DNA from: Octopus vulgaris | Lineage: Eukaryota | Direction of reading: 5' to 3' | Assembly (NCBI GenBank): GCA_951406725.2 | Contig: OX597827.1 | Location: 24,986,001-25,050,000, forward strand | Length of the DNA stretch: 64,000 nucleotides | Part shown: positions 11,443-57,860 of the stretch, in pieces | Layout: the number at the start of each line of letters is the position of its first letter | Numbering within the stretch: the stretch's first letter is position 1 | Position numbers and translations under genes: made by a program | Notes under the pieces: model-generated | The model's input: the letters and a program-made list of their open reading frames with translations, nothing else | Told to the model about the DNA's origin: nothing | Databases searched by the model: none

Positions 11443-11830
11443 CACGCCGGGTGAAATACTTAGCGGCATTTTGTCTGTCGTTACGTTGTGAGTTCAAATT
11501 CCGCCGAGATCGACTTTGCTTTTCATCCTTTCGGGGTCGATTAAATAAGTACCAGTTACGCACTGGGTTGATATAATCGACTTAATCCGTTTGTCTGTCC
11601 TTGTCTGTCCTCTCTGTGTTTAGCCCCTTGTGGGTAGTAAAGAAATAGGTATTTCGTCTGTCGTTACGTTCTGTGTTCAAATTCCGCCGAGGTCGACTTT
11701 GCCTTTCATCCTTTCGGGGTCGATTAAATAAGTACTAGTTACGCAGTGGGGTCGATGTAATCGATATAATTCCTTTGTCCGTCCTTGTTTGTCCCCTCTA
11801 TGTTTAGCCCCTATTGGCAATAAAGAAATT
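11443..11830 (+). mobile_element. Dimeric Meta-core SINE
   Basis: Two ~184-nt body units joined by aaagaaataggtatttcgtctg. Confidence 0.85.
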
Positions 11831-12526
11831 AATATGTCGATTATAGTATATTGAATTAAATGCACATGTTTTAGTTGCTTGAGGTCACACGTTCAAAAAT
11901 TTAGGATATTTCGATATTTATTGCTTTATTAAAGCTATAATACTCGGTTTAGCCACTACGCACATTTTTTTCTCTCCTTGTTTTTTCTGTGTCCCTTTCT
12001 GTAGAAGAGCGTAGGCTCGAAACGTAAAAGACTTTTTCTATTCCTGAGCGTTATACTAATACATCTGTTTGTTTTGTACACCACCTGTCTTCGTCTTTTG
12101 TTTTTTTCGTAAACTCTCCCTATACATATATACAAAGCAGTGCATTACAAGGATATATACAGATACAAGCGTAAAAGTAGAAAAGAAGTTCTGAACGTAT
12201 TGTCAAATCAGGATTTCCCGTTTCTCATTGAGCTCATTTACCAATCAATGTGAAGAAATCAGTGTGAGTGAAAGGAGTGAAATGTTTCCAAGGATCCGGG
12301 TAGGGTTGAGGTTAAAAAGCAACACTGACACCAGTTGCTTATATATCACTTCCTTGTGACACACTCAAAAGAGACACATAGACCTGATCACTTCACAGTC
12401 CACAGACGATAATAAGCACATCACTTTCGAATCACCGTTTTAAGTCAAAAATAAATAAATAAATAAATAAATAAATAAAGAGGTACACACACTGGATCAT
12501 GTAGCGGGTAAGAAATAAAAGATGAC

Positions 12527-12930
12527 TAGCTGGCAGAATCGTTAGCACGCCGAGCGAAATGCTTAGCGGTATTTCGTCTGCCGTTACGTTGTGAGTTCAA
12601 ATTCCGCCGAGGTCGACTTTGCCTTTCATCCTTTCGGGGTCGATAAATTAAGTACCAGTTACCCACTGGGGTCGCTGTAATCGACTTAATCCGTTTGTCT
12701 GTCCTTGTTTGTCCCTTTTGTATTTCGCCCCTTGTGGGTAGTAAAGAAATAGGTATTTCATCTGCCGTTACGTTCTGAATTCAAATTCCGCCGAGGTCGA
12801 CTTTGCCTTTCATCCTTTCGGGGTCGATTAAATAAGTACCAGTTACGCACTGGGGTTGATGTAATCTACTTAATTCGTTTGTCTGTCCTTGTTTGTCCCC
12901 TCTGTGTTTAGCCCCCTGTGGATAGTAAAA
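12527..12930 (+). mobile_element. Dimeric Meta-core SINE
   Basis: Head agctggcagaatcgttagcacgcc followed by two body units with the same junction type. Confidence 0.85.
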
Positions 12931-13718
12931 CAACAGGTAAGAAATAAACGATGACATGGTCATGAACGTAATGTTTTGATCATAGATATCTTGATCAAGT
13001 TAGATGTGGCGCCAAGCAGCTTTAGTAGCAGGTGGACCAAGCGAGTAAATCACCTGTTGTTGTCAAGATAGAAATCCAGATGTTATGTTTGTCTACTTCT
13101 CTCATGACATATCTATTTGATAAATTGTTTACCCTGTTACAAATTATCAAATATTGTCCACGCTCCTAACAAAAGAACTTGAAGTTATATAAACCAGCTT
13201 TCTCTGTTTGTGTAATCAACCTTTCAGCGTAGAGTAGCGCAAACATTGTGAATATTTAGAAGTTTCAGTGATACAATTTGTGACGATCCAACGTGTTCGT
13301 AGTTTAATAACCTGAGTACAATTTCCAATTTTTATTTATTTATTTATTTATCTCGTGGCGCCGATCAAGTTTGAAGGTTTAAAGGAAGGTTGACATTCTG
13401 CTGTTTTGAGGCAAATCATTTACAAGGTGGAGTGCTTGTAGACTTTTCCTGTTTTTTTTTTCGTTTCGTAACATAAAGTAGCAGAACACAGTACATTGTG
13501 AATAACCTCGATTGAAACTCAGGCCTCAACCAGAGCTGTAGAAAAATAAAGCTGGTCGCAGAGGCCTTTGGGACCGAGTGTTGGTGGGAGAGGACAAAGA
13601 TTAAATTTATTCTCTTACATTGAGAAAATACTACAGAAGTACAAAGACACAAGAACACACGAGGAATTCCAATCCGATTTCATATTTCGCAATATTTAGT
13701 AACACAGTTAGTAACATA

Positions 13719-18087: not shown

Positions 18088-19195
18088 TTAGAATCGTTAG
18101 CACGACGAGCAAAATGCTTAGCAGTATTTCGTCTGCCCTTACGTTCTGAGTTCAAATTACGCCGAGGTCGACTTTGCCTTTCATCCTTTCAGCGTCGATT
18201 TCATCCATTTACGCACTGGGATCGATGTAATCGACTTAATCCGTTTGTCTGTCCTTGTTTGTCCTCCCTGTGTTTAGCCCTTTCAAGGGTAGTAAAGAAA
18301 TAGGTATTTCGTCTGCCGGTATTTCGTTCTGAGTTCAAATACCGCCGAGGTCAACTTTGCCTTTCATCCTTTCGGGGACGATTAAATAAGTACGAGTACG
18401 TAACTGGTACTTATTTAATCAACTTTATCCCTTTGTCTGCCCTTCTTTGTCCCCTCTTTATTTAACCCCCTGTGGGCAATAAAGAAATAAATACTTAGGC
18501 ACTGGATGAGTGATGCAGAACAGTTTCGTCACTTTACGCGCATCTTGTGCAGGACCGGCTGACAAGAATTTCCGTGCCTGTTGAATCTCTCTCGAACCAG
18601 CAATGACCCAACCCCCGGTAGCACTGTTAGTCCAGAGATTTCTGAAAATTATTCATAGATCCCCGACCTGTGAGCTCTCCGGCACAGAAAGCTCGTTTGA
18701 TTCCCGTTGACAATTAAAGTCTCCCTTAGAATGTCATTGCCTTTGCCCGCCATTAAACATCTATAGAATACCATTTAATTATATCATTACTAATCTTTTC
18801 TACTATAGGTACAAGGCCTGAAACTTTGGGGGAGGGCTTAAGTCCATTACATCGACCCCACTGCTTAGCTGTACTTCTTTTATCAACCCCGAAAGGATGA
18901 AAGGCAAAGACGACCTCGGCGGAGTTTGAACTCAGAACGTAAAGACGGACGAAATGCCGCTAAGCATTTTACCCGGCGTGGTAACGATTCTGCCAGATCG
19001 CCGTCTTACTTTCTACAATACGCATAAATCCTGAAATTTTGGTGAAGGGGGGCTATTCGACTGCATTGACCCCAGTACTTGACTAGAGCTTATATCGACC
19101 CCGAAAGAATGAAAGGGCAAGTCAATCTGGCGGAATTTGAACTCACAACGTAAAGACGGTAGGAACGCCGCTAACCATTCTGCCAGCTTGCCCTC
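18088..19195. mobile_element. Meta-core SINE cluster (+ dimer 18088-18490; - copies 18795-19195)
   Basis: Family core is present in both orientations. Confidence 0.75.
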
Positions 19196-20860: not shown

Positions 20861-21644
20861 AAGGCGGCGAGCTGGCAGAATCGTTAGCACGCCGAGCGAA
20901 ATGCTTAGCAGTATTTCGTCTGCCGCTACGTTCTGAGTTCAAATTCCGCCGGGGTCGACTTTGCCTTTCATCCTTTCGGGGTCGATAAATTAAGTACCAA
21001 TTACGCACTGGGGTCGATATAATCGACTTAATCCCTTTGTCTGTCCTTGTTTGTCCCCTCTATGTTTAGCCCCTTGTGGGTAATAAAGAAATAGGTATTT
21101 CGTCTGCGTTACGTTGTGAGTTCAAATTCCGCCGAGGTCAACTTTGCCTTTCATCCTTTCGGGGTCGATAAATTAAGTACCAGTTACGCACTGGGGTCGA
21201 TGTAATCGACTTAATACCTATGTCTGTCCTTGTTTGTCCCCTCTGTGTTTAGCCCCTTGTGTGTAAAAAAGAAATAGGTATTTCGGCTGCCGTTACGTTG
21301 TGAGTTCAAATTCCGCCGAGGTCGACTTTGCCCTTCATCCTTTCGGGGTCGATAAATTAAGTACCAGTTAAGCACTGGGGTCGATATAATCGACTTAATA
21401 CCTATGTCTGTCCATATTTGTCCCCTCTATGTTTAGCCCCTTGTGGGTAATAAAGAAATATGTATTTCGTCTGCCGTTACGTTCTGAGTTCAAATTGCGC
21501 CGGGGTCTACTTTGCCTTTCATCCTTTCTAGGTCGATACATTAAGTACCAGTTACGCACTGTGGTCGATATAATCAACTTAATCCGTTTGTCTGTCCTTG
21601 TTTGTCCCCTCTATGTTTAGCCCCTTGTGGGTAATAAAGAAACA
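20861..21644 (+). mobile_element. Tetrameric Meta-core SINE with 16-bp target-site duplication
   Basis: One head, then body units starting at 20911, 21095, 21278 and 21462. Flanked by gatatttcagaattgt (20844-20859) and gatatttcaaaattgt (21645-21660). Confidence 0.9.
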
Positions 21645-22334
21645 GATATTTCAAAATTGTCTCCCCTACCAAACGTGATCAAGTTGAAGGAGGGAGCCAC
21701 TGACTACTCCTCGTTGTCTTGTTTTATTTCTTTGCACAACATCTCATGAAATATCTTAGCACTGACTTAACTATTACAAATATCATCCGTTTCCCATATC
21801 TACAGTTGCAATATCGCATTCATCTACACGAGCCTACCGGCCTACTATTAATTTTTACCCGTTCAAATTTATCTTCATCACATCAAAGTTGTGAATCAGT
21901 AGTCATTGTAGCAAAGGATGAAATGCCTTCTGGTATTTGTTCTTGCTCTCTGCGTCCCGACTTCAAGTTCCTTTCAGGTTAATATTGCCTTTGATCAGTC
22001 TCCGCTATCGATAAACTAAAGTAGCAAACCCGAGCAGAATTGCTATAACTTCGGATGCTTTGTGTTATTTGTTATCACACTTTGGGTTCTGAGTCCTTGG
22101 GTGTTAGACAAATTATCATCCGGTTTAACTCCATCACACAGTCCATGGGTTTCATTTCGCAGAGTTCTTTCTAATTAAAGATTCAGGATTGATTTCCAGT
22201 TTGAAGATAACGTCCTCCCTTCGACCCATCAGACGCTAAGGAGACGCGATCTGTTTTTTTTCTCTCCCTGGTTCAATGGTAAAACCATTGAATATTTCCG
22301 AATATTTAGTCTTTGAAAGTTGTCAAAATAAATA

Positions 22335-22434: not shown

Positions 22435-23335
22435 TGCAGATTACTACACTTAAGGTAGTAAGCTGAAATTAATTAGCTGTTGTAACTTAGAGGAATTAGT
22501 AATTTGCGTTAATTAAAATTCTCATTAGGGTTATAATTTCGATGAGTTAAAAAGTAGTTTCCGCTCACTTAATCATGTATGATAACTAGTATACTTAACT
22601 GTATGTTACTCATGCAGAAGACCCACGTGGGGAACTTTTTTTGCAGTGTCATTTCAACAAATAATAAATTATTACACTGAACGTGGGTGCTTATATGTGG
22701 TCACTCGATCGACTAGAAATAGCAGACAACTCTTCCTCAAATTATACCTTATTGCTAGAAGAATCAATGATTGGTAAGTGTTTAATGTTTAAACTATGGT
22801 TTTCTTGAGACAGATATCACTCCTCAACAAGAATGTTCTTCTATTTAGATGTCCGTTTCTTAAACTCAACGAGATCTCATCTGAGAATATCAGGGCTCAA
22901 ACGACGCATTCAAGTTAGGACTATCCCAACAGTTTTTCTCAATTTAATATCAAAATATTCAATACAGTTTGAATTTTGTATATTTTTTTTTGGCATCAGG
23001 CAATGAGAATGTGATTAAAGGGAGATTTGGTCGGTCTTTTATTGTCGTTTTCGTTGCTTAATTCAACTAGGCCCTGAATTAACAAACCTATGATCAAATA
23101 AATTTCAACCATCCTATATTTTAAGACGCATGTCTAAAACTACAGTATTTAGGGTGTCCTTTCCTTCTCTGAGCCAGTAAGGTTATAACAACACAAAACC
23201 CTGACTTCAAAATAAGAAGTTCAAGGAAATTCCCCCTGAAATATGATATAGACTTTTATTATTCATCGCCAGTAATAATCTCCCTAATGGTGTGGTAAAA
23301 ATTGGTTGAATATCGTGTTTCATGGTTTATTACAT

Positions 23336-23488
23336 GTTTAATGGTTTTATTTTTGTACACATATGTTGCCTTCCAAATGGTTTCTAATATTTTCATTGGC
23401 GCTACTGTCTACGATAAATGACTTTTGTTCATTATTAAAGATTATAACATATTTTAATTGCTTCTTTTTGTTTTGTTTCTGTTGACAG
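23336..23488 (+). promoter_or_regulatory. Conserved 3' intron segment and splice acceptor of channel exon A
   Basis: Pyrimidine tract cttctttttgttttgtttctgttgacAG (AG at 23487-23488); 150/153 nt identical to 41379-41531. Confidence 0.85.
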
Positions 23489-24436
23489 ATTTATTCCACG
23501 GTAACAATTACGTTTATTATACTGTCCGTAATATCTTTCATCGTAGTTACTCATCCTTGCTGCCGAATACAAGGCGATCGGGATTTTTTTGGAATGGTAC
23601 ACTTAAACGAAACGAGGGAGCAGGAATTTACCTCTATGCCTCATCCTGCGTTTATTGTAATTGATTTAGTTTGTCTCGTATTCTTTACATGCGATTTGGC
23701 AATCAAATACTTCAGTTATCCAAACAGGAAGCTTTTCTTCATAAATGTATTGAATCTTGTGGATATTGCTTCGGTCTTACCTGATTTTATCGCTATTTTT
23801 ATTAGCACTACACTGGATGTAAAAAAGGCCAATGAAGTAATGCACTACGTCAATATTTTAGGGTTATTTCGTTCCCTCAGGATTTTCCGATTGGCACGTT
23901 ACGTCCCAGGATTGTGGATTTTGTTCTACACATTCAAAGCCAGTATCTGGGATTTGTTGTTGATGAACGGCTTTATGATGGTCGGTATGATTGTATTTGC
24001 GACTTTAATTTATCATGCAGAAGATGATAATTTCAACAATATTCCTATTAGTCTGTGGTGGGCGCTGGTCACTATGACTACAGTTGGTTATGGAGATATG
24101 TTCCCATCAAATTTCTTTGGCTATATAGTTGGTTCCCTTTGCGCTATCACCGGCGTGTTAATGGTTGCTTTCACTGTTCCGATTATTGTCAATAATTTCC
24201 TCATGTATTACACGTATTACATACACATTCAATCCAAACAAGAACTAAAGAGACGTCGGGAAAAACATAAGAAAAACGTTGAAAAAACTGAAGAAGATAG
24301 CAAGGTTGGGGAAAGTGAAGAAGATGGTAACGTTGAGAAAAATAAAGAAGATGACAACCTTGAGAAAAAGGAAGAAGATGGCAACGTTGAGAAAAAGGAA
24401 GAAGATGGCAACGTTGAGAAAAAAGAAGGAAGATGA
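23489..24436 (+). CDS. Voltage-gated K+ channel, Shaw/Kv3-like, S1-S6 plus short tail (terminal exon A; N-terminal T1 exon not in window)
   Basis: The frame is open from the acceptor (IYSTVTITFIILSVISFIVVTHP, S1) into ORF 23594..24436. S4 is LFRSLRIFRLARY, the pore is WWALVTMTTVGYGDM and S6 is GSLCAITGVLMVAFTVPIIVNNF. GLWILFYTFKAS resembles the Shaw S4-S5 linker. Confidence 0.9.
   Translation: MYSTVTITFIILSVISFIVVTHPCCRIQGDRDFFGMVHLNETREQEFTSMPHPAFIVIDLVCLVFFTCDLAIKYFSYPNRKLFFINVLNLVDIASVLPDFIAIFISTTLDVKKANEVMHYVNILGLFRSLRIFRLARYVPGLWILFYTFKASIWDLLLMNGFMMVGMIVFATLIYHAEDDNFNNIPISLWWALVTMTTVGYGDMFPSNFFGYIVGSLCAITGVLMVAFTVPIIVNNFLMYYTYYIHIQSKQELKRRREKHKKNVEKTEEDSKVGESEEDGNVEKNKEDDNLEKKEEDGNVEKKEEDGNVEKKEGR
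24275..24436 (+). repeat. Coding minisatellite, 6 x 27 bp (consensus NVEKKEEDG)
   Basis: Units such as aacgttgagaaaaaggaagaagatggc. The last unit has an extra base that leads to TGA. Confidence 0.92.
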
Positions 24437-32335: not shown

Positions 32336-32964
32336 TGTATAAATATATATATATATATACAACGGGTTTCTTTCAGTTTCCGTTTATCAAATCTACTCTC
32401 AAAGCTGTAGTCGGCTTTAGTAGAGGGCACGCGCTCAATGTGCTACACGGTGGGACCGAACACGGAACCATGTGGTTGGGAAGCAAACTTCTTACCACAC
32501 AGCCACATCTGCGCCTGAGAGAAAATTGTGTAAAATGAGTTACAATAGTTGAAAAAAAAAGTGGGAGATAGGCTTACTTCCCAACCAAATGGTTCTGTGT
32601 TCAGTTCACCATGTAGCACCTTGGGCAAGTGCGCACGAGTGAATTTTGTAGGCAGAAACATGTTCCGCATTATGACGACGCAACTTCGCCGTCTGCGTGA
32701 CTGACCAGAACAGCGTAGCTCACTGTCTGATACTGCTTGCTGTGTCTGTTCGCTATTCATCAGTAGGGAAACAGCCCACTTCTCACTTGGAGGTGTCCGC
32801 CACGACATCTCCCCCCTTTGAATTTTTTTTCCTCTTTCACACAATATCATTGTTTTTTTTAATCTTCAGTCTACATTGTTTACCGGTAGCGCTACTAACA
32901 CAAAGCAACTTGACGAAAATCCTTCACACGGACTTACCATTATTATTATTATTATTATTATTAT

Positions 32965-33477
32965 TACTTTTTTCTTCTTCTTTCAAATTTGCTTCCATTT
33001 CTTGCCGAGTGTCTTCCCGACTCCTAGGGCAAAGAAACTCATAGTATACATTGGTAGGCCATTAAACCAAACTCAATAGTTCGTTCATTTTTTTTTTCTT
33101 TTAAGTTAAATTAAAATACATGAGCAGCAACAGTTCTCACATCGACAATACTCTTCTCAATACGTGTGATGTACCAGTTAAGACAATCTTTTGCACTTCT
33201 TGCAGGGATGGTAAGCCAGGGATCATTCTCATATAATTTTCGGTTCCCTTCTTGATCATTCCTAGTGCTCCTACGATCACTGGTATTGTAACCGCCTTGA
33301 GATGCCACATTTTCTCAATTTCAATGAGTAGGTCTTTATATTTTCTGAGCTTGTCAAACTCTTTCGCTGAGATATTATGATCACAGGGGATGCTCATGTC
33401 GATCAATAAGCAAACTTTATTGTTTTGGTCTTTCACAACAATATCTGGTTTATTGGCCTTGATGGTTCGGTCTGTAT
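32965..33477 (-). mobile_element. 5'-truncated R4/Dong-type retrotransposon, same family as 53878-57860
   Basis: TDRTIKANKPDIVVKDQNNKVCLLIDMSIP...RRVLSM and the 3' UTR are nearly identical to the full-length copy. (TAA)n lies on both sides. Confidence 0.95.
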
Positions 33478-40402: not shown

Positions 40403-41378
40403 TCTAATTTCTATATCATTGAGCAGTTTCTTCAAGTGCTCAATCAAACCCTAAAATACCATTCTCTTGCAGATCGTCCTCAATAGTAGCAAGAACTGAA
40501 ACTGCATCATCTTACGCCCAATATTGATTCTAAATAAAGTTTTCCAAACAGAACATTAGGAGGCTCTTTGAAAATTAAAGGATTTGTATTTCTACCTTGT
40601 AGCTGTTTGTTTAGCAAATTTAGTTTTTCACATATATCTGTAAGGTAAAAAACGTCCCATTTGCTTGCTAGGAGTATCTTTTTTTACTCAGCTATTTACT
40701 ATTCAGAAACATTACAGCATCGTCTCAAAGTCCAACAAAACGACGCAGGCAATTACCTTTAGAGATTGTTATCGGTTTTATGAACTTCAAAGCAGTAACA
40801 TAATACTTAATCCATCCAAGACCTTCCAATGCCAATTTGAAACATGATTGATCAATAACGAATTATTATCGAAGTATTAAATAAACCCTTTTTTCCTTTC
40901 ACGACAGATTTTCAATTGCAGAAAGTAAATTGTCTGTATGTGCGTGTGTATATATTTTAGTATATAAATTTCGAAGTGTTACAGACAGTAACAGAAAAAT
41001 TTTAGGCGAAACCAGATTGGTAGTTGTGTGGTTCTTTTCATTTGTCTGTGACACCATCTACTTCCAAAGCTTTTCTATGGACCGACTGAACTTTAGGGTC
41101 ATATGATCCCAGTTCGGCAAACAACACTGTTTTAAGATGGACTTTTAGAACTTCCTTCTTCAATTTGTCTTTTCTTTATCTGAGACGATAAGGTCAAACT
41201 TGAGGTAGAGTTGGCTCATATTTCTTGTTGGTCCAACGACCAAGTTGAAAGGAAGGGGTTCGAGGACATTCTTCCTGGAATACAATATAGACGTATAAAA
41301 AAGGGTCTTTTATTATTCCTTGCCACTAATACTCTCCCCGATGCTGTGGTAAAAGTTGGTTCATGGATTATTACATAC

Positions 41379-41531
41379 GTTTAATGGTTTTATTTTTGTA
41401 CACATGTGTTGCCTTCCAAATGGTTTCTAATATTTTCATTGGCGCTACTGTCTACGATAAATGACTTTTGTTCGTTATTAAAGATTGTAACATATTTTAA
41501 TTGCTTCTTTTTGTTTTGTTTCTGTTGACAG
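41379..41531 (+). promoter_or_regulatory. Conserved 3' intron segment and splice acceptor of channel exon B
   Basis: Same pyrimidine tract and gttgacAG (AG at 41530-41531) as exon A. Confidence 0.85.
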
Positions 41532-42707
41532 ATTTTTGGCATGATAACAGTTATGTTTATTATACTGTCCGTAATGTCTTTCATCGTAGCTACTCATCCT
41601 GCCGGCCGAATAGAAGGGGATCGTGACATTTTGGGACGATTACACAGAAACAGAACGAAATTAAGTGTGCCTCATCCTGCATTGGTCACAATCGATTTTA
41701 TTTGTCTCGCATTCTTCACATTTGATTTAATCACAAGGTTCATCACTTGTCCAGAATGGAAAAAATTCGTTCGGGATACTTTGAATATTGTGGATTTCAT
41801 TGCGATTCTTCCTGATTATATCGACATTATTGTTGTCTACACAGTTGAGGCAAATGTTGCATTGGAAACCATGCACTACGTGAATTTTTTAAGAATCTTT
41901 CGTGCCCTCAGGATTTTCCGCTTGGTCCGTTATGTTCCAGGCTTGTGGATCATGCTGTACACATTCAAAGCCAGTTTCTGGGACTTGTTGTTGATGATTT
42001 GTTTTATGAATGTCGGTATGATTATGTTTGCCACTTTCATCTATTACGCCGAGGAGGAAAATTTCCCCAATATTTTCATTGGTATGTGGTGGGCACTGAT
42101 CACTATGACTACGGTTGGTTATGGAGATATGTCTCCATCAAGTAACTTAGGGTACCTTGTTGGCTCGTTATGTGCTGTCACTGGTTTGTTAATGGTCGGT
42201 TTCACTGTTCCTATAATCGTCAGTAATTTTGTCATGTACTACAAACATATGCAATCCATGCAAGAAGCAGGGAAACGTGAGGAAAAAGCTCAGAAAGATT
42301 TGGATCTGCTGCAAAAGTTGATAGAAAGTGAAGAAACAAGTGAACTAACAACCGAAGACATGGGACCTGAGACTTCGTCGGAAAAGCGTTCTAATGAATC
42401 AGAAGAAAAACGTAAACAACATCTGAATTCGTCAAAATTTCCTCCGCCATCTTACGACAGTTTGCCATCTCGCACTAATCACCGGCGCTTGCGTGTAGGA
42501 ATAGCTCGAAATTACATGCTTGCCAATAATAATAAGCAGACGACAAATGGATCACATGTATTAAAGAAACCTCCTAAAGAAACTGGGAATTCAGTACCAA
42601 GCAAAAATAATCGGGATAATTCAGACGTTCATCAGCATATGAATGATGAAAACTCAAATATCAACTGTGGACCAGAGATAAACGATCTTGAAACATCTAT
42701 GTTATAA
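41532..42707 (+). CDS. Voltage-gated K+ channel, Shaw/Kv3-like, S1-S6 plus long tail (terminal exon B; no T1 exon visible)
   Basis: Acceptor, then IFG into ORF 41541..42707. S4 is FLRIFRALRIFRLVRY, the pore is WWALITMTTVGYGDM and S6 is GSLCAVTGLLMVGFTVPIIVSNF. Confidence 0.92.
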   Translation: MFGMITVMFIILSVMSFIVATHPAGRIEGDRDILGRLHRNRTKLSVPHPALVTIDFICLAFFTFDLITRFITCPEWKKFVRDTLNIVDFIAILPDYIDIIVVYTVEANVALETMHYVNFLRIFRALRIFRLVRYVPGLWIMLYTFKASFWDLLLMICFMNVGMIMFATFIYYAEEENFPNIFIGMWWALITMTTVGYGDMSPSSNLGYLVGSLCAVTGLLMVGFTVPIIVSNFVMYYKHMQSMQEAGKREEKAQKDLDLLQKLIESEETSELTTEDMGPETSSEKRSNESEEKRKQHLNSSKFPPPSYDSLPSRTNHRRLRVGIARNYMLANNNKQTTNGSHVLKKPPKETGNSVPSKNNRDNSDVHQHMNDENSNINCGPEINDLETSML

Positions 42708-53877: not shown

Positions 53878-56800
53878 GCCGACTACGGCTGCTATAATGG
53901 TACGATTATAATTATAACGGCAATGATGGCCGTCTCCCCACGAGCCAATCAAAGCTAAAAAATGATAACATTATCGTAGCACCAAAATGTTTTTGGAAAC
54001 TAAAAGGAAAACTAAATCAGTATACCAAATCGCTTGTCCTATGGTTAATCTGGAAGCGCGTCCCCCAGGGAAGAGCCAGCCTGGGATCGAAAAGTCATCA
54101 ACTGGCACAAACTCTTCTCCGAATACGGACATGGATGGTCACTTGAACGGGAAATCCCCCAACTCGAGCCCTCCAAGTTCACCACCACAACCACCACAGA
54201 AAGAAAAATGTAAGCGGAACAAATGGACCCGAGAAGAGTATAAAGAAGTAATATACGCTTATTACTATGCATTAGGTAGGCCATCTCAAGAGAGACACAC
54301 CGCAAACTCTTACAGTATATGGAGAACACGGAATCAAGACAGTAGGCCCTATTTGGACGAGAACAAATTAGCAAATGTGAGGAGGGATATCTTTAGAAAT
54401 AACAGACTCACAGACAGTGAAATAAGTGCGATCAAGCACGCAACGGAAAATGACATAAATATAAGACACAAAGGAAATGAAGAATCAGATGAACAGTATA
54501 GCCCGCCACGAGGCTTAATTGAAAGACTGCCATCTGACCAAAGTACGCAAAGGCCTGAAGATACAAGAAATTCTATTGTACCTGTTAAAGATAGCCAGGA
54601 AAACGAAAAAACAACAGTAACTGAAGATCTCGCATTTGCTGAAGAACACAGAGAGTCTATGGCAGAAATGAGGCAGAAAATCCTGAATACGCTTGAAGTT
54701 GTAAGACATACAAGTATGAATGATAGAGAACCGCTTCATAAACTCTCAAATACAAACCAAAATAAAAAACAAATCCAAATTGGCAACTATGTAACAAATG
54801 AAATAATACGAGAATTAAAACCTGATTTTACTGAGTTAAATGAAATTATTTACGCTTCTGCTAGGGCAATTGAAACCAGCTGTATTCCCCCGAAAAAACA
54901 AAGAAAACAAAACCTGGGAAGAAATCAAACCTGGAGAAGTAAAATTGAAAAAGAGATTGAATTTATGAGAGGGGAAATATCAATATTAAATGAACTAATA
55001 TGTGGAAATGATGTAAGATCCAGAACAGGAAGAAAGATGAAGAGAAAATTTGGATCCTCACCAAGAGAAGAACTGATATCAATAAAAGAAACGCTGAAAC
55101 AAAAAGTCCAAGCAAAAGCCCAAAGAATACGAAGATTTGAGAAGAGAAACAAGTTTTACAAGCAAAATAAGCTGTTCACATCCAATGCCAAAAAATTCTA
55201 CAGAGAAATAGGGAAGGAGAAAGTAACCGTTAAAGACCCCCCTCCCATGGAAGAAGTTCAAAACTTTTGGGAAAGGATTTGGAGTGACAAGAAGACGTAC
55301 AACATAAATGCAGACTGGATTATACAAACTGAAGGATCCTACCAAAATTTACAACAACAAGCATGGGAAGACATCACAATAGCAGACCTAAGAAAGGCAC
55401 TCACGAAGGCCCATAATTGGAAATCCCCCGGTAAAGATAGGGTGCCGAATTTCTGGCTCGCATCGCTCCCGTGCGCACACGGTAAGCTAGTTCAGCTGCT
55501 CAATGGAATTTTGAGAGACCCAAAGAAAACACCTGAATGGTTAGCAAGTGGCATTACTTACCTACTCCCAAAGAATAACGAAACCAACCTTCCAAAAAAC
55601 TATCGGCCTATAACCTGTCTATCCACCACGTATAAAATCCTAACATCTATCCTGGCGGAGAAAACATATGCATTCATGGAGAAGAACGATATTTTCCCCA
55701 TTGAACAAAAAGGGTGCCGCCGAGGCTCTTACGGATGCAAAGATCAACTGCTAATCAATCGTATGATCCTTGAGAACTGTCACAACAAGCGCAGAAATCT
55801 CAGCACCGCATGGATTGACTATAAAAAGGCCTTCGACAGTATACCGCATCCATGGATCTTGAGATCGCTGGACATCTTTAAAATTTCCCCTGTGATTTCA
55901 AACTTCCTGAAGCACAATATGTCGTTGTGGAATACGAATCTCCAATTATACCACTCTAATGGAGTACTTGCCTCAGAAAATATAAACATCAACTGTGGAA
56001 TTTTTCAAGGTGACTCACTTTCACCTTTAATATTCTGCATAGCCCTAATACCCCTTACAAGTAAATTAAACAGAACAGGGTATGGGTATAAAATTGCCAA
56101 TAAAAAAATAAGCCATCTATTTTATATGGATGACTTAAAACTTTATGGTAAAGACAATAATGAACTTGAAGGCCTATTGCGCACCGTGAAAGCATTCAGC
56201 GATGACATCGGGATGGAGTTTGGACTTGAGAAGTGTGCCAAGGCCACTTTCCAGAAAGGGAAAGTGAAGACCACAAATTCAGTCGTGTTAGATGTTGACA
56301 CAGTCATAAGAGAGCTTGAGCAAGAACAGACATACAAATATTTAGGGATAAATGAAGGCTCTGGTATTCAACATGCAAGCATGAAAGAGAAAATCAGGAA
56401 GGAATGTTATAGGAGAGTTCGTGCAGTCCTGAAATCTGAACTAAATGCACGTAACAAGGTGTTAGCTATAAATTCCTTAGCAGTTCCAGTTGTTACTTAT
56501 AGCTACAATGTGTTGAACTGGAATATGAGTGAAGTAAAGAATATAGATAGAAAAATACGCAAGCTGCTGAGTTGTAATAGGATGCACCACCCAAAGGCAG
56601 ACGTAGATCGCCTTTACCTTCCCAGAGCCCAAGGAGGTCGAGGCCTGATCCAATTTGAACTAGCTTACAAAACAACCACAATTGGACTGGCCAAATATCT
56701 CGAAATATCGAATGACTGGATGCTAAAGCTCGTGGAAAATCACGAGAGACGAAAGAAGCTTCATTCTATCATCAAGGAAAGCAAAAAATTTGCTATTGAT

Positions 56801-57860
56801 CTCGTGCAGGATACCCAAACTGAACAACCCGAGGGAAGTACGGCAACTATTGTTGCAAAGAAGGTGAAAATGATGGCAATGAAAAAAGCGCACGAGCAAT
56901 TGGCTGATAGGTGGGAGGAGAAACCTCTGCACGGCAAATATGTGACCCGCAGCAAACAAGCTGATGTTGACCAGAAGCAAACCCATCAGTGGCTGCGGAG
57001 CTCAGGGCTAAAAGCAGAGAGCGAAGGTTTCATCCTGGCTGCTCAAGACCAAAGCCTATTAACCCGGAACTACCAGGCCAATGTGATGAAAAATGGAGCA
57101 GACCCAAAATGCCGATTCTGCAACGACATGATTGAAACAGTGGACCACCTAATCTCTGGATGTAAAGTTTTAGCACCAGTGGAGTATAAATTAAGACATG
57201 ACAGAGTTGGCCAATATCTCCACTGGCTAATAAGTCGGCATTACAATATCAAAACTGCCGACAAGTGGTATAATCACCACCCTGAGGCTGTAACTGAAGG
57301 AGAAAATGTAACCATTCTGTGGGACTTTCCAGTACATACAGACCGAACCATCAAGGCCAATAAACCAGATATTGTTGTGAAAGACCAAAACAATAAAGTT
57401 TGCTTATTGATCGACATGAGCATCCCCTGTGATCATAATATCTCAGCGAAAGAGTTTGACAAGCTCAGAAAATATAAAGACCTACTCATTGAAATTGAGA
57501 AAATGTGGCATCTCAAGGCGGTTACAATACCAGTGACCGTAGGGGCACTAGGAATGATCAAGAAGGGAACCGAAAATTATATGAGAATGATCCCTGGCTT
57601 ACCATCCCTGCAAGAAGTGCAAAAGATTGTCTTAACTGGTACATCACACGTATTGAGAAGAGCATTGTCGATGTGAGAACTGTTGCTGCTCATGTATTTT
57701 AATTTAACTTTAAAAAAAAAAAAAAAAAAAAATGAACGAACTACTGAGTTTGGTTTAATGGCCTACCAATATACACTATGAGTTTATTTGCCCTAGGAGT
57801 CGGGAAGACACTCGGCAAGAAATGGAAGAAAATTTGAAAGAAGAAAAAAAAAAGTAAAAA
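53878..57860 (+). mobile_element. Apparently full-length R4/Dong-clade non-LTR retrotransposon inserted in a (TAA)-type microsatellite
   Basis: Single long ORF and a ~185-nt 3' UTR running into (TAA)n. The 5' side abuts an (AAT/GAT)-rich tract; the 5' boundary is uncertain. Confidence 0.85.
53987..57676 (+). CDS. Non-LTR retrotransposon polyprotein: reverse transcriptase plus restriction-like endonuclease (1229 aa)
   Basis: NYRPITCL, WIDYKKAFDS, GIFQGDSLSPL, LFYMDDLK, YKYLG; CCHC motif CRFC..ETVDHLISGC; RHD; RLE motif KPDIV..LIDMSIP..K..KY. No APE domain. Confidence 0.97.
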   Translation: MFLETKRKTKSVYQIACPMVNLEARPPGKSQPGIEKSSTGTNSSPNTDMDGHLNGKSPNSSPPSSPPQPPQKEKCKRNKWTREEYKEVIYAYYYALGRPSQERHTANSYSIWRTRNQDSRPYLDENKLANVRRDIFRNNRLTDSEISAIKHATENDINIRHKGNEESDEQYSPPRGLIERLPSDQSTQRPEDTRNSIVPVKDSQENEKTTVTEDLAFAEEHRESMAEMRQKILNTLEVVRHTSMNDREPLHKLSNTNQNKKQIQIGNYVTNEIIRELKPDFTELNEIIYASARAIETSCIPPKKQRKQNLGRNQTWRSKIEKEIEFMRGEISILNELICGNDVRSRTGRKMKRKFGSSPREELISIKETLKQKVQAKAQRIRRFEKRNKFYKQNKLFTSNAKKFYREIGKEKVTVKDPPPMEEVQNFWERIWSDKKTYNINADWIIQTEGSYQNLQQQAWEDITIADLRKALTKAHNWKSPGKDRVPNFWLASLPCAHGKLVQLLNGILRDPKKTPEWLASGITYLLPKNNETNLPKNYRPITCLSTTYKILTSILAEKTYAFMEKNDIFPIEQKGCRRGSYGCKDQLLINRMILENCHNKRRNLSTAWIDYKKAFDSIPHPWILRSLDIFKISPVISNFLKHNMSLWNTNLQLYHSNGVLASENININCGIFQGDSLSPLIFCIALIPLTSKLNRTGYGYKIANKKISHLFYMDDLKLYGKDNNELEGLLRTVKAFSDDIGMEFGLEKCAKATFQKGKVKTTNSVVLDVDTVIRELEQEQTYKYLGINEGSGIQHASMKEKIRKECYRRVRAVLKSELNARNKVLAINSLAVPVVTYSYNVLNWNMSEVKNIDRKIRKLLSCNRMHHPKADVDRLYLPRAQGGRGLIQFELAYKTTTIGLAKYLEISNDWMLKLVENHERRKKLHSIIKESKKFAIDLVQDTQTEQPEGSTATIVAKKVKMMAMKKAHEQLADRWEEKPLHGKYVTRSKQADVDQKQTHQWLRSSGLKAESEGFILAAQDQSLLTRNYQANVMKNGADPKCRFCNDMIETVDHLISGCKVLAPVEYKLRHDRVGQYLHWLISRHYNIKTADKWYNHHPEAVTEGENVTILWDFPVHTDRTIKANKPDIVVKDQNNKVCLLIDMSIPCDHNISAKEFDKLRKYKDLLIEIEKMWHLKAVTIPVTVGALGMIKKGTENYMRMIPGLPSLQEVQKIVLTGTSHVLRRALSM

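What the first reader, a model, noticed from the sequence alone, without database searches (positions are those of the whole stretch)
23336..23488. Intron upstream of the acceptors is far more conserved than the exons it precedes
Seen: 23336-23488 and 41379-41531 match at 150 of 153 nt, and all three differences are A/G. The encoded S2-S6 is only about 60% identical by manual alignment, and intron homology further upstream is weak. Inference: either recent gene conversion or a constrained cis-element for exon choice. Such an element could be a shared selector that pairs with a single docking site near the common donor, as in Dscam1-type mutually exclusive splicing. A/G-only variation is compatible with pairing to U.
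Basis: partly seen in the sequence, partly recalled or inferred. Interest (0 to 1): 0.8.

Follow-up and report, generated by a model that had tools for sequence, protein, structure and literature searches.

The report
Octopus channel gene's recombining exon cassettes
Two almost identical 153-base intron ends lie in front of duplicated membrane-coding exons of an octopus potassium-channel gene; they are most likely the footprint of recent DNA exchange between the duplicates rather than a splicing switch, and the more interesting point is that one gene likely plugs three or four alternative voltage-sensor-plus-pore modules onto one shared front end.

Summary
Observation confirmed: 150/153 identical, all three differences A/G. 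The locus is an octopod Shaw-like Kv gene. One T1 exon lies 30 kb before the window, followed by three S1-S6 terminal exons: A, B and C (C just past the window); named relatives have a fourth, D. Exon codon 25 onward groups B with C; the 153-nt segment groups A with B (29 sites against 1; permutation p=0.0002). C's copy is 80% identical, the neutral B/C level, so no extra constraint is needed. No complementary docking site, Rfam match or fold beat shuffles. Exons B/D and C/D share residues by species, so exchange recurs in this cluster. In one relative's run, B-type upstream and A-exon contigs are about 7-fold deeper than A-upstream, which fits unequal crossover inside the segment (one run only). 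Best reading: gene conversion and unequal crossover, as in human red/green opsins, held back from the exon by selection (0.8). A Dscam/PGRP-LC selector is unsupported (0.04), though a short stem is not excluded. Conservation in distant octopods could not be tested. The mechanism is ordinary; the Kv cassette architecture was not found in five paper searches.

The parts
23336..23488 (+). 3' end of intron before exon A; homogenised tract, copy A; holds the polypyrimidine tract and AG acceptor; AG-poor (1 AG in -153..-41). The intron begins outside the window, after the only T1 coding exon found in 264 kb (G000:C14:24955359-24955925, 189 codons, phase 0, GTAAGT donor, 30 kb before the window start)
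41379..41531 (+). same tract before exon B, 18,043 nt downstream; 150/153 identical to copy A. A third copy (about 81%) and terminal exon C lie beyond the window end (G000:C14:25053749-25054984; exon C starts at 25053905)
23364..23430 (+). 67-nt perfect A/B identity run (B copy 41407-41473); contig paths in runs X8 and X11 merge at its start; inferred crossover zone
23229..23335 (+). older, partly decayed A/B tract (77/94 identical; A/C 64/107, B/C 58/100); B counterpart about 41270-41378
23489..23560 (+). first 24 codons of exon A (S1): 15 of 15 same-residue codons identical to B, but 9 residues differ
23489..24436 (+). terminal exon A: S1-S6 and acidic C-terminus of a Shaw-like Kv subunit, phase 0, own stop; lacks the first S4 arginine
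41532..42707 (+). terminal exon B: S1-S6 and C-terminus, phase 0, own stop; 390/391 identical to the O. sinensis model P0001

Best explanation
The two 153-nt intron ends are most likely a tract made alike by recent non-allelic recombination (gene conversion, and likely unequal crossing-over) between tandemly duplicated last exons of one Shaw-like potassium-channel gene. Shown: one T1 exon, three phase-matched S1-S6 exons, and a local tree in the tract (A with B) that contradicts the exon tree (B with C). Inferred: B's sequence overwrote A's in -153..+3, because A's copy is as far from C (127/157) as B's is (126/157), the neutral B/C distance, while A/C elsewhere is 56-60%. An older exchange ran the other way in -260..-153. 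The tract persists here because acceptor-region sequence is interchangeable between cassettes, indels and repeats break homology upstream, and selection on A's distinct S1-S4 residues removes tracts that enter the exon. Its long perfect runs then seed further exchange, which would yield extra [B-upstream | tract | exon A] units. Exon choice itself is inferred to be ordinary competition between alternative last exons (acceptor use against polyadenylation); with near-identical acceptors the tract cannot itself tell A from B.
For: Sites where one copy differs from the other two: tract 29 C-only, 1 A-only, 2 B-only; exon +70..+720 50 C-only, 112 A-only, 40 B-only (Fisher p=3.5e-12). Sawyer-type permutation over 316 polymorphic sites: A/B run p=0.0002 (0 of 5000), A/C 0.69, B/C 0.08-0.10. 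C versus B in the tract 122/150 equals B/C four-fold sites 57/72 (p=0.72), so no excess constraint is needed. Protein-level concerted evolution: B and D share 3 residues by species in one block (35/37 within each species, 31-33/37 across); C/D of O. bimaculoides are 34/37 in S1-S2 against 23-27/37 for the ortholog pairs; 3 more species-grouped sites for C/D, where the C rows are from this genome and O. bimaculoides and the D rows from O. sinensis and O. bimaculoides. Run X8: A-upstream contig depth 26.5, second upstream contig 186.9 (matches only 23336-23393), tract-plus-exon-A contig 192.5, B/D-type exon piece 69.1; six extra units predict 185.5 and 192.7. Precedent: red/green opsin introns kept alike with a divergence peak in the exon (PMC3924837, passages).
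Against: No orthologous intron from a distant octopod was reachable, so neutral drift of the tract between species is not shown; among close relatives 1 change in 153 nt against 2.7 expected (P=0.24) has no power. Run X12 shows the A contig unbroken and no second copy over 23340-23399: a coverage hole, a lost copy, or no A/B identity there. The tract is AG-poor (1, 1, 2 AG in A, B, C; 1.5% of 413 intron windows have 1 or fewer) and S1 silent sites are unusually alike (A/B 15/15, p=0.006; A/C 15/16, p=0.02); both also fit some constraint. The X8 reading rests on one run of 4 laid; the tool warns that depth is no copy number; the contig's unaligned part was not shown; 645 pieces were not listed. 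Protein-level evidence concerns other parts of the cluster and rests on gene models.
Confidence: 0.8

Rival explanations
1. Purifying selection on a single-stranded splicing element (distant branch point with a long AG-free zone, or protein-binding sites reaching into S1) is the main reason A and B stay alike.
For: AG depletion in the tract (shuffle P=0.035, 0.029, 0.15 for A, B, C); three blocks invariant in all three copies (12, 19, 15 nt); A/C tract identity 123/150 exceeds A/C four-fold identity 35/62 (p=0.0002); silent-site identity in the first 24 codons.
Against: C uses the same kind of acceptor with 20% divergence, equal to neutral B/C divergence. Constraint does not explain why A sides with B against B's closer relative C, nor 98% over AT-rich filler. 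A and B are not independent observations. It may act alongside conversion.
Confidence: 0.12
2. Docking-site/selector pairing as in Dscam1 exon 6 or the PGRP-LC 3' variable region: the tract holds a selector that pairs with one site near the T1 donor.
For: The architecture fits (common exon, duplicated 3' cassettes, similar sequence before each acceptor; PMC6191721 passages). A/G-only differences.
Against: Pairing-aware alignment of the core (-153..-41): 24-30 of 200 shuffles reach the observed score in the first 2 kb after the donor, 10-28 of 30 in the whole T1 intron, 10-29 of 30 in the whole unit. Duplex with T1 exon plus 1 kb of intron is no better than shuffles (24-38 of 40). Three-way invariant blocks: 18 of 18 block-by-region tests unremarkable (best 5 of 30). 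Known stems are about 14 nt (PMC6071210 passage) and would not need 153 nt. A>T at 23446 in runs X8 and X12.
Confidence: 0.04
3. The tract is an editing-complementary or other structured RNA element that pairs with its own exon.
For: Cephalopod K+ channels are recoded by editing (PMC9068888 passage); 1 of 9 local folds reached z=-2.5 (B, -100..+150); Rfam K_chan_RES matches the S6 region of all three exons.
Against: Tract fold z=+1.3 and +0.3; duplex with own exon no better than shuffles (11-26 of 40); consensus fold has a covariation term of only -0.64 kcal/mol; the Rfam matches lie about 700-750 nt inside the exons, not in the tract.
Confidence: 0.02
4. Assembly or polishing artefact: one copy pasted over the other.
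For: Run X12 shows only one copy over 23340-23399; the assembly has a 100-N gap nearby and lacks exon D.
Against: Runs X8 and X11, of other organism labels, have contig ends at 23393 and starts at 23364, the signature of two upstream sequences converging after the 23363 difference; in X11 the merged contig continues into exon B with exactly the 18 B-exon differences.
Confidence: 0.02

Closest known systems
Human red/green opsin tandem array (PMC3924837, passages)
   Same: Tandem paralogs about 20 kb apart, intron kept more alike than the adjoining exon by conversion, selection holding exon differences. Copy-number change and hybrids by unequal crossover there are recalled, not from a call.
   Different: Here the units are cassettes of one gene behind a shared exon; only about 150-280 nt of intron is homogenised.
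Drosophila 3' variable regions PGRP-LC, CG42235, Pip (PMC6191721, passages)
   Same: Common 5' part spliced to one of several tandemly duplicated 3' cassettes, each with its own end.
   Different: There a conserved docking site pairs with selectors at 0.3-1.25 kb and was tested by mutation; here acceptors are 54, 72 and 98 kb from the donor and no docking complement was found.
Dscam1 exon 6 docking/selector (PMC6071210, passages; PMC3236188, passages)
   Same: Duplicated alternative exons with related upstream intron.
   Different: Internal cassette exons; short selectors; no gene conversion detected in Daphnia arrays 4 and 6, whereas this cluster shows it.
Vertebrate clustered protocadherins (PMC1852091, passages)
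   Same: Variable and constant exons, with lineage-specific regional homogenisation of variable exons by conversion.
   Different: Mirror image: variable first exons with constant last exons; here a constant first exon and variable last exons.
Molluscan Shaw-like Kv genes (P0006, P0008, P0009, P0015 and bivalve models)
   Same: T1 plus S1-S6 with TTVGYGD filter; P0006/P0008 are the sister group of the cluster (92/90).
   Different: Of 127 proteins held (those over 400 aa compared), only P0002/P0007 shared a whole T1 part and then diverged at the junction; that set was the top hits of two searches, not a survey.

Membership tests
Docking-site/selector splicing (Dscam1 exon 6, PGRP-LC type) | Tandem duplicated alternative cassettes behind a common exon | tested here: met
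   One T1 exon, three phase-0 S1-S6 exons; O. bimaculoides models P0002 and P0007 share 201 N-terminal residues, then 63%. Gene models, not reads; nothing seen joins T1 to C or D.
Docking-site/selector splicing (Dscam1 exon 6, PGRP-LC type) | Docking site complementary to the shared upstream element, above chance | tested here: not met
Docking-site/selector splicing (Dscam1 exon 6, PGRP-LC type) | Short (about 14 nt) stem conserved across species with compensatory changes | tested here: inconclusive
   Chance 11-14-nt complements occur; only close relatives were reachable.
Docking-site/selector splicing (Dscam1 exon 6, PGRP-LC type) | Disruptive and compensatory mutations shift exon choice | not testable with these tools
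   needs a minigene
Non-allelic gene conversion / concerted evolution (opsin type) | Bounded tract whose tree conflicts with flanking sequence | tested here: met
Non-allelic gene conversion / concerted evolution (opsin type) | Paralogs within a species share changes absent from their orthologs | tested here: met
   Protein level only: B/D 3 sites in one block, C/D 3 sites.
Non-allelic gene conversion / concerted evolution (opsin type) | The same for this intron tract across species | tested here: inconclusive
   Contigs of close relatives merge or may pop the A/B bubbles; X12 shows one copy.
Non-allelic gene conversion / concerted evolution (opsin type) | Copy-number change or hybrid units with breakpoint in the tract | tested here: inconclusive
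   Depth pattern in 1 of 4 runs fits about six extra hybrid units; not confirmed by reads.
Shaw-like (Kv3-related) voltage-gated K+ channel subunit | T1 domain, S1-S6, K+ filter motif, nearest named relatives Shaw-like | tested here: met
   PF02214, PF00520/PF07885, TTVGYGD, source names. Strict Kv3 orthology was not tested: no Kv1/2/4 outgroups in the tree.
Shaw-like (Kv3-related) voltage-gated K+ channel subunit | Forms a conducting channel | not testable with these tools
   needs expression and recording
Known intronic ncRNA (Rfam) | Covariance-model match in the tract | tested here: not met
   None of the 5 matches at E<=1 in L001-L003 overlaps the tract.

The most novel reading that the evidence does not exclude
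Octopods built a Kv gene with a 3' variable region: one T1 exon is spliced to any of three or four whole voltage-sensor-plus-pore modules, so all isoforms could co-assemble through the same T1. The homogenised acceptor tract is a standing recombination site that shuffles, amplifies and deletes these modules, making the channel repertoire copy-number variable among closely related octopuses.
Probability: 0.4. Interest if true: 0.65.

Novelty: new member of a known kind. Interest (0 to 1): 0.4.

Why it matters
The intron identity itself is a known process and argues against reading such tracts as splicing selectors without an outgroup copy. The locus is the worthwhile part: a K+ channel gene that likely swaps its entire membrane module, including a variant S4 lacking the first arginine, under one T1 domain. 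It is a compact case of conversion opposed by selection in an ion channel, with a possible copy-number polymorphism. Current annotations split or miss its isoforms. It gives channel physiologists a testable set of isoforms and heteromers.

Tried and rejected
Complement searches by blastn-short, pairing-aware Smith-Waterman, duplexfold and invariant blocks: nothing above shuffles; the intron scans began 2 nt inside the intron, the whole-unit scan covered the donor. Rfam and folding: nothing in the tract. Hidden coding exon or repeat: the tract has 3 matches in the genome (which warns that it skips common words), and the B-upstream stretch 41050-41400 has 2. Separate genes with their own T1: none found between the exons. 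Exon D in this assembly: not found. Expression: no RNA holder listed; presumed-RNA run X14 gave two short exon-A contigs and no junction, so no verdict. O. bimaculoides-distance DNA was not evidently among the 24 runs listed; 4 of 24 were laid, once. Earlier scan notes: none in 3 look-ups. Paper searches for this gene or architecture (listings only, except PMC9068888 passages) found no description; the library lacks most subscription journals and no supplements were read, so cephalopod genome-paper supplements may mention the locus. No structure or complex prediction was run, as neither bears on the question.

Full report
Observation. The two segments are 150/153 identical with A/G differences at 23363, 23431 and 23444. 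Each ends at an AG acceptor before an open frame encoding S1-S6 and a C-terminus of a Kv subunit. A and B exons are 147/237 aa, 527/711 nt and 41/60 four-fold sites identical, so 150/153 is far outside background (P about 1e-16 to 1e-21).

Anatomy. A genome search finds a third copy of the segment, 81% identical, just past the window, before a third S1-S6 exon, C. The only T1 exon in the 264 kb examined lies 30 kb before the window (G000:C14:24955359-24955925), has 189 codons and ends in phase 0 at GTAAGT. Acceptors lie 53.6, 71.6 and 98.0 kb from it. The O. sinensis model P0001 is T1 plus B (390/391 identical to B here). O. bimaculoides models P0002 (T1+B) and P0007 (T1+A) share 201 N-terminal residues and then fall to 63%. 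These are gene models; I saw no spliced read, and nothing joining T1 to C or D. Both named species have a fourth exon, D (P0003, P0005), absent from this assembly; a 100-N gap follows C. In a 31-row protein tree A-D form one clade (100/99), with A first and B sister to C+D, next to P0006/P0008.

The tract conflicts with the exon tree. Over exon +70..+720 the odd copy out is A at 112 sites, B at 40, C at 50; over -153..0 it is A at 1, B at 2, C at 29 (p=3.5e-12). A Sawyer-type permutation gives p=0.0002 for A/B, 0.69 for A/C and 0.08-0.10 for B/C. Ungapped identity by zone: -260..-153 AB 82%, AC 60%, BC 58%; -153..+3 AB 98%, AC 81%, BC 80%; +4..+71 84/79/87%; rest of exon 73/71/82%. Four-fold identity is 56% for A/C and 79% for B/C. 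So A's tract is B-like and sits at the neutral B/C distance from C (p=0.72), and the zone before it in B is A-like and older. Two nested exchanges in opposite directions account for every figure without added constraint; this is inference.

Exchange recurs in the cluster. In the S3-S4 block B and D are 35/37 identical within each species and 31-33/37 across, with three residues grouping by species; C and D of O. bimaculoides are 34/37 in S1-S2. Most diagnostic sites still group by paralog (32 for B/D, 24 for C/D), so exchange is patchy. In the first 24 codons A and B have no silent difference in 15 same-residue codons but 9 residue differences (p=0.006), and A's S1 residues are largely kept in O. 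bimaculoides. This fits conversion opposed by selection, as described for opsins (PMC3924837, passages), though splice-linked silent constraint would look similar.

Other animals. Of 24 runs listed, four were laid on 22500-24290. In X8 and X11, contigs end at 23393 and begin at 23364, so two upstream sequences converge right after the 23363 difference; in X11 the merged contig goes on into exon B with 18 differences, exactly the B-exon count, and none at 23431 or 23444, which means either identical copies or a popped bubble. This rules against an artefact. In X8 the A-upstream contig has depth 26.5 (two unrelated contigs 28 and 20.9), a second upstream contig matching only 23336-23393 has 186.9, the tract-plus-exon-A contig 192.5, the rest of exon A 97, and a B/D-type exon piece 69.1. 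Six extra units of B-upstream, tract and exon A predict 185.5 and 192.7, which is the duplication product of unequal crossover inside the tract. That the second contig is B-type is inferred from its boundary; depth is not a copy number; one run shows it; the majority A path there has a 4-nt insertion after 23729. Against: X12 has an unbroken A contig and no second copy over 23340-23399. Divergence in the tract among these relatives is 1 change (A>T, 23446) against 2.7 expected from the flanking intron (P=0.24): no power.

The selector idea. No complement beats shuffles in the first 2 kb after the donor, the T1 intron or the whole unit, by duplex energy, or for the three blocks invariant in A, B and C. 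No Rfam family or stable fold lies in the tract. Known selectors are short and need a conserved docking partner (PMC6071210 and PMC6191721, passages); a stem of about 14 nt cannot be excluded in 54 kb without a species alignment. One hint of real constraint remains: the tract is AG-poor, as expected before an acceptor with a distant branch point (recalled, not from a call).

Mechanism. Shown: the architecture, the bounded tract and the tree conflict. Inferred: recent B-to-A conversion; persistence because acceptor-region DNA is interchangeable while exon A's residues are selected; further exchange and unequal crossover seeded by the 67- and 48-nt perfect runs. Untested: how cells choose among A, B, C and D; AATAAA occurs 662, 250 and 837 nt after the three stops, compatible with alternative last-exon choice.

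Comparison and verdict. It works like the opsin array and the converted protocadherin variable exons (PMC1852091, passages), in a gene built like Drosophila 3' variable regions; it fails the docking-site test, and differs from Dscam arrays, where conversion was not detected in Daphnia (PMC3236188, passages). Five searches found no account of this gene; PMC9068888 (passages) mentions conversion only for protocadherins. New member of a known kind; interest 0.4.

Noticed in passing
window 23850-23905 (S4 of exon A); P0007, P0012: Exon A lacks the first S4 arginine present in B, C and D, in all three A sequences aligned; exon C of this genome has Leu in place of the last S4 arginine, which O. bimaculoides C keeps.
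   Followed up: no
run X8 laid on window 23729-23753: The majority exon-A path carries a 4-nt insertion (frameshift) and depth halves after 23753, so many amplified A copies may be broken or truncated.
   Followed up: partly
G000:C14:25062359-25062458 (L013): 100-N gap 7 kb after exon C; exon D, present in two named relatives, is missing from this assembly and may lie here.
   Followed up: partly
L001 2248-2361, L002 2236-2349, L003 2242-2355: Rfam K_chan_RES (K+ channel editing signal) matches the S6 region of all three exons (70.9, 49.1, 51.7 bits; cut-off 51); may be plain S6 homology; editing not tested.
   Followed up: no
window 53969-57676: Uninterrupted 1235-codon frame that reads like a non-LTR retrotransposon ORF (label from recall, no family scan); an inverted 96% fragment lies at 32939-33477.
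   Followed up: no
window 24320-24436: Exon A ends in short acidic tandem repeats; the O. bimaculoides A model has a different acidic repeat at the same place.
   Followed up: no
G000:C14:24949974; P0121 and P0005 N-termini: The first exons of two models match a locally abundant repeat, so they are exonised repeat or model artefacts. A 237-aa model (P0122) starts inside exon B and misses the T1 join.
   Followed up: partly
window 22774-22782: Runs X8, X11 and X12 all have 32 extra letters between two copies of a 9-nt stretch, so this genome likely carries a small deletion.
   Followed up: no
window 20861-21652, 11443-12939, 18090-18500: Tandem copies of a roughly 184-nt dispersed repeat; a similar array lies upstream of both exon A and exon C.
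   Followed up: no
window 22776-23488 versus G000:C14 upstream of exon C: A and C keep gapped homology over about 710 nt upstream (65%), where B has unrelated sequence beyond about -330.
   Followed up: partly
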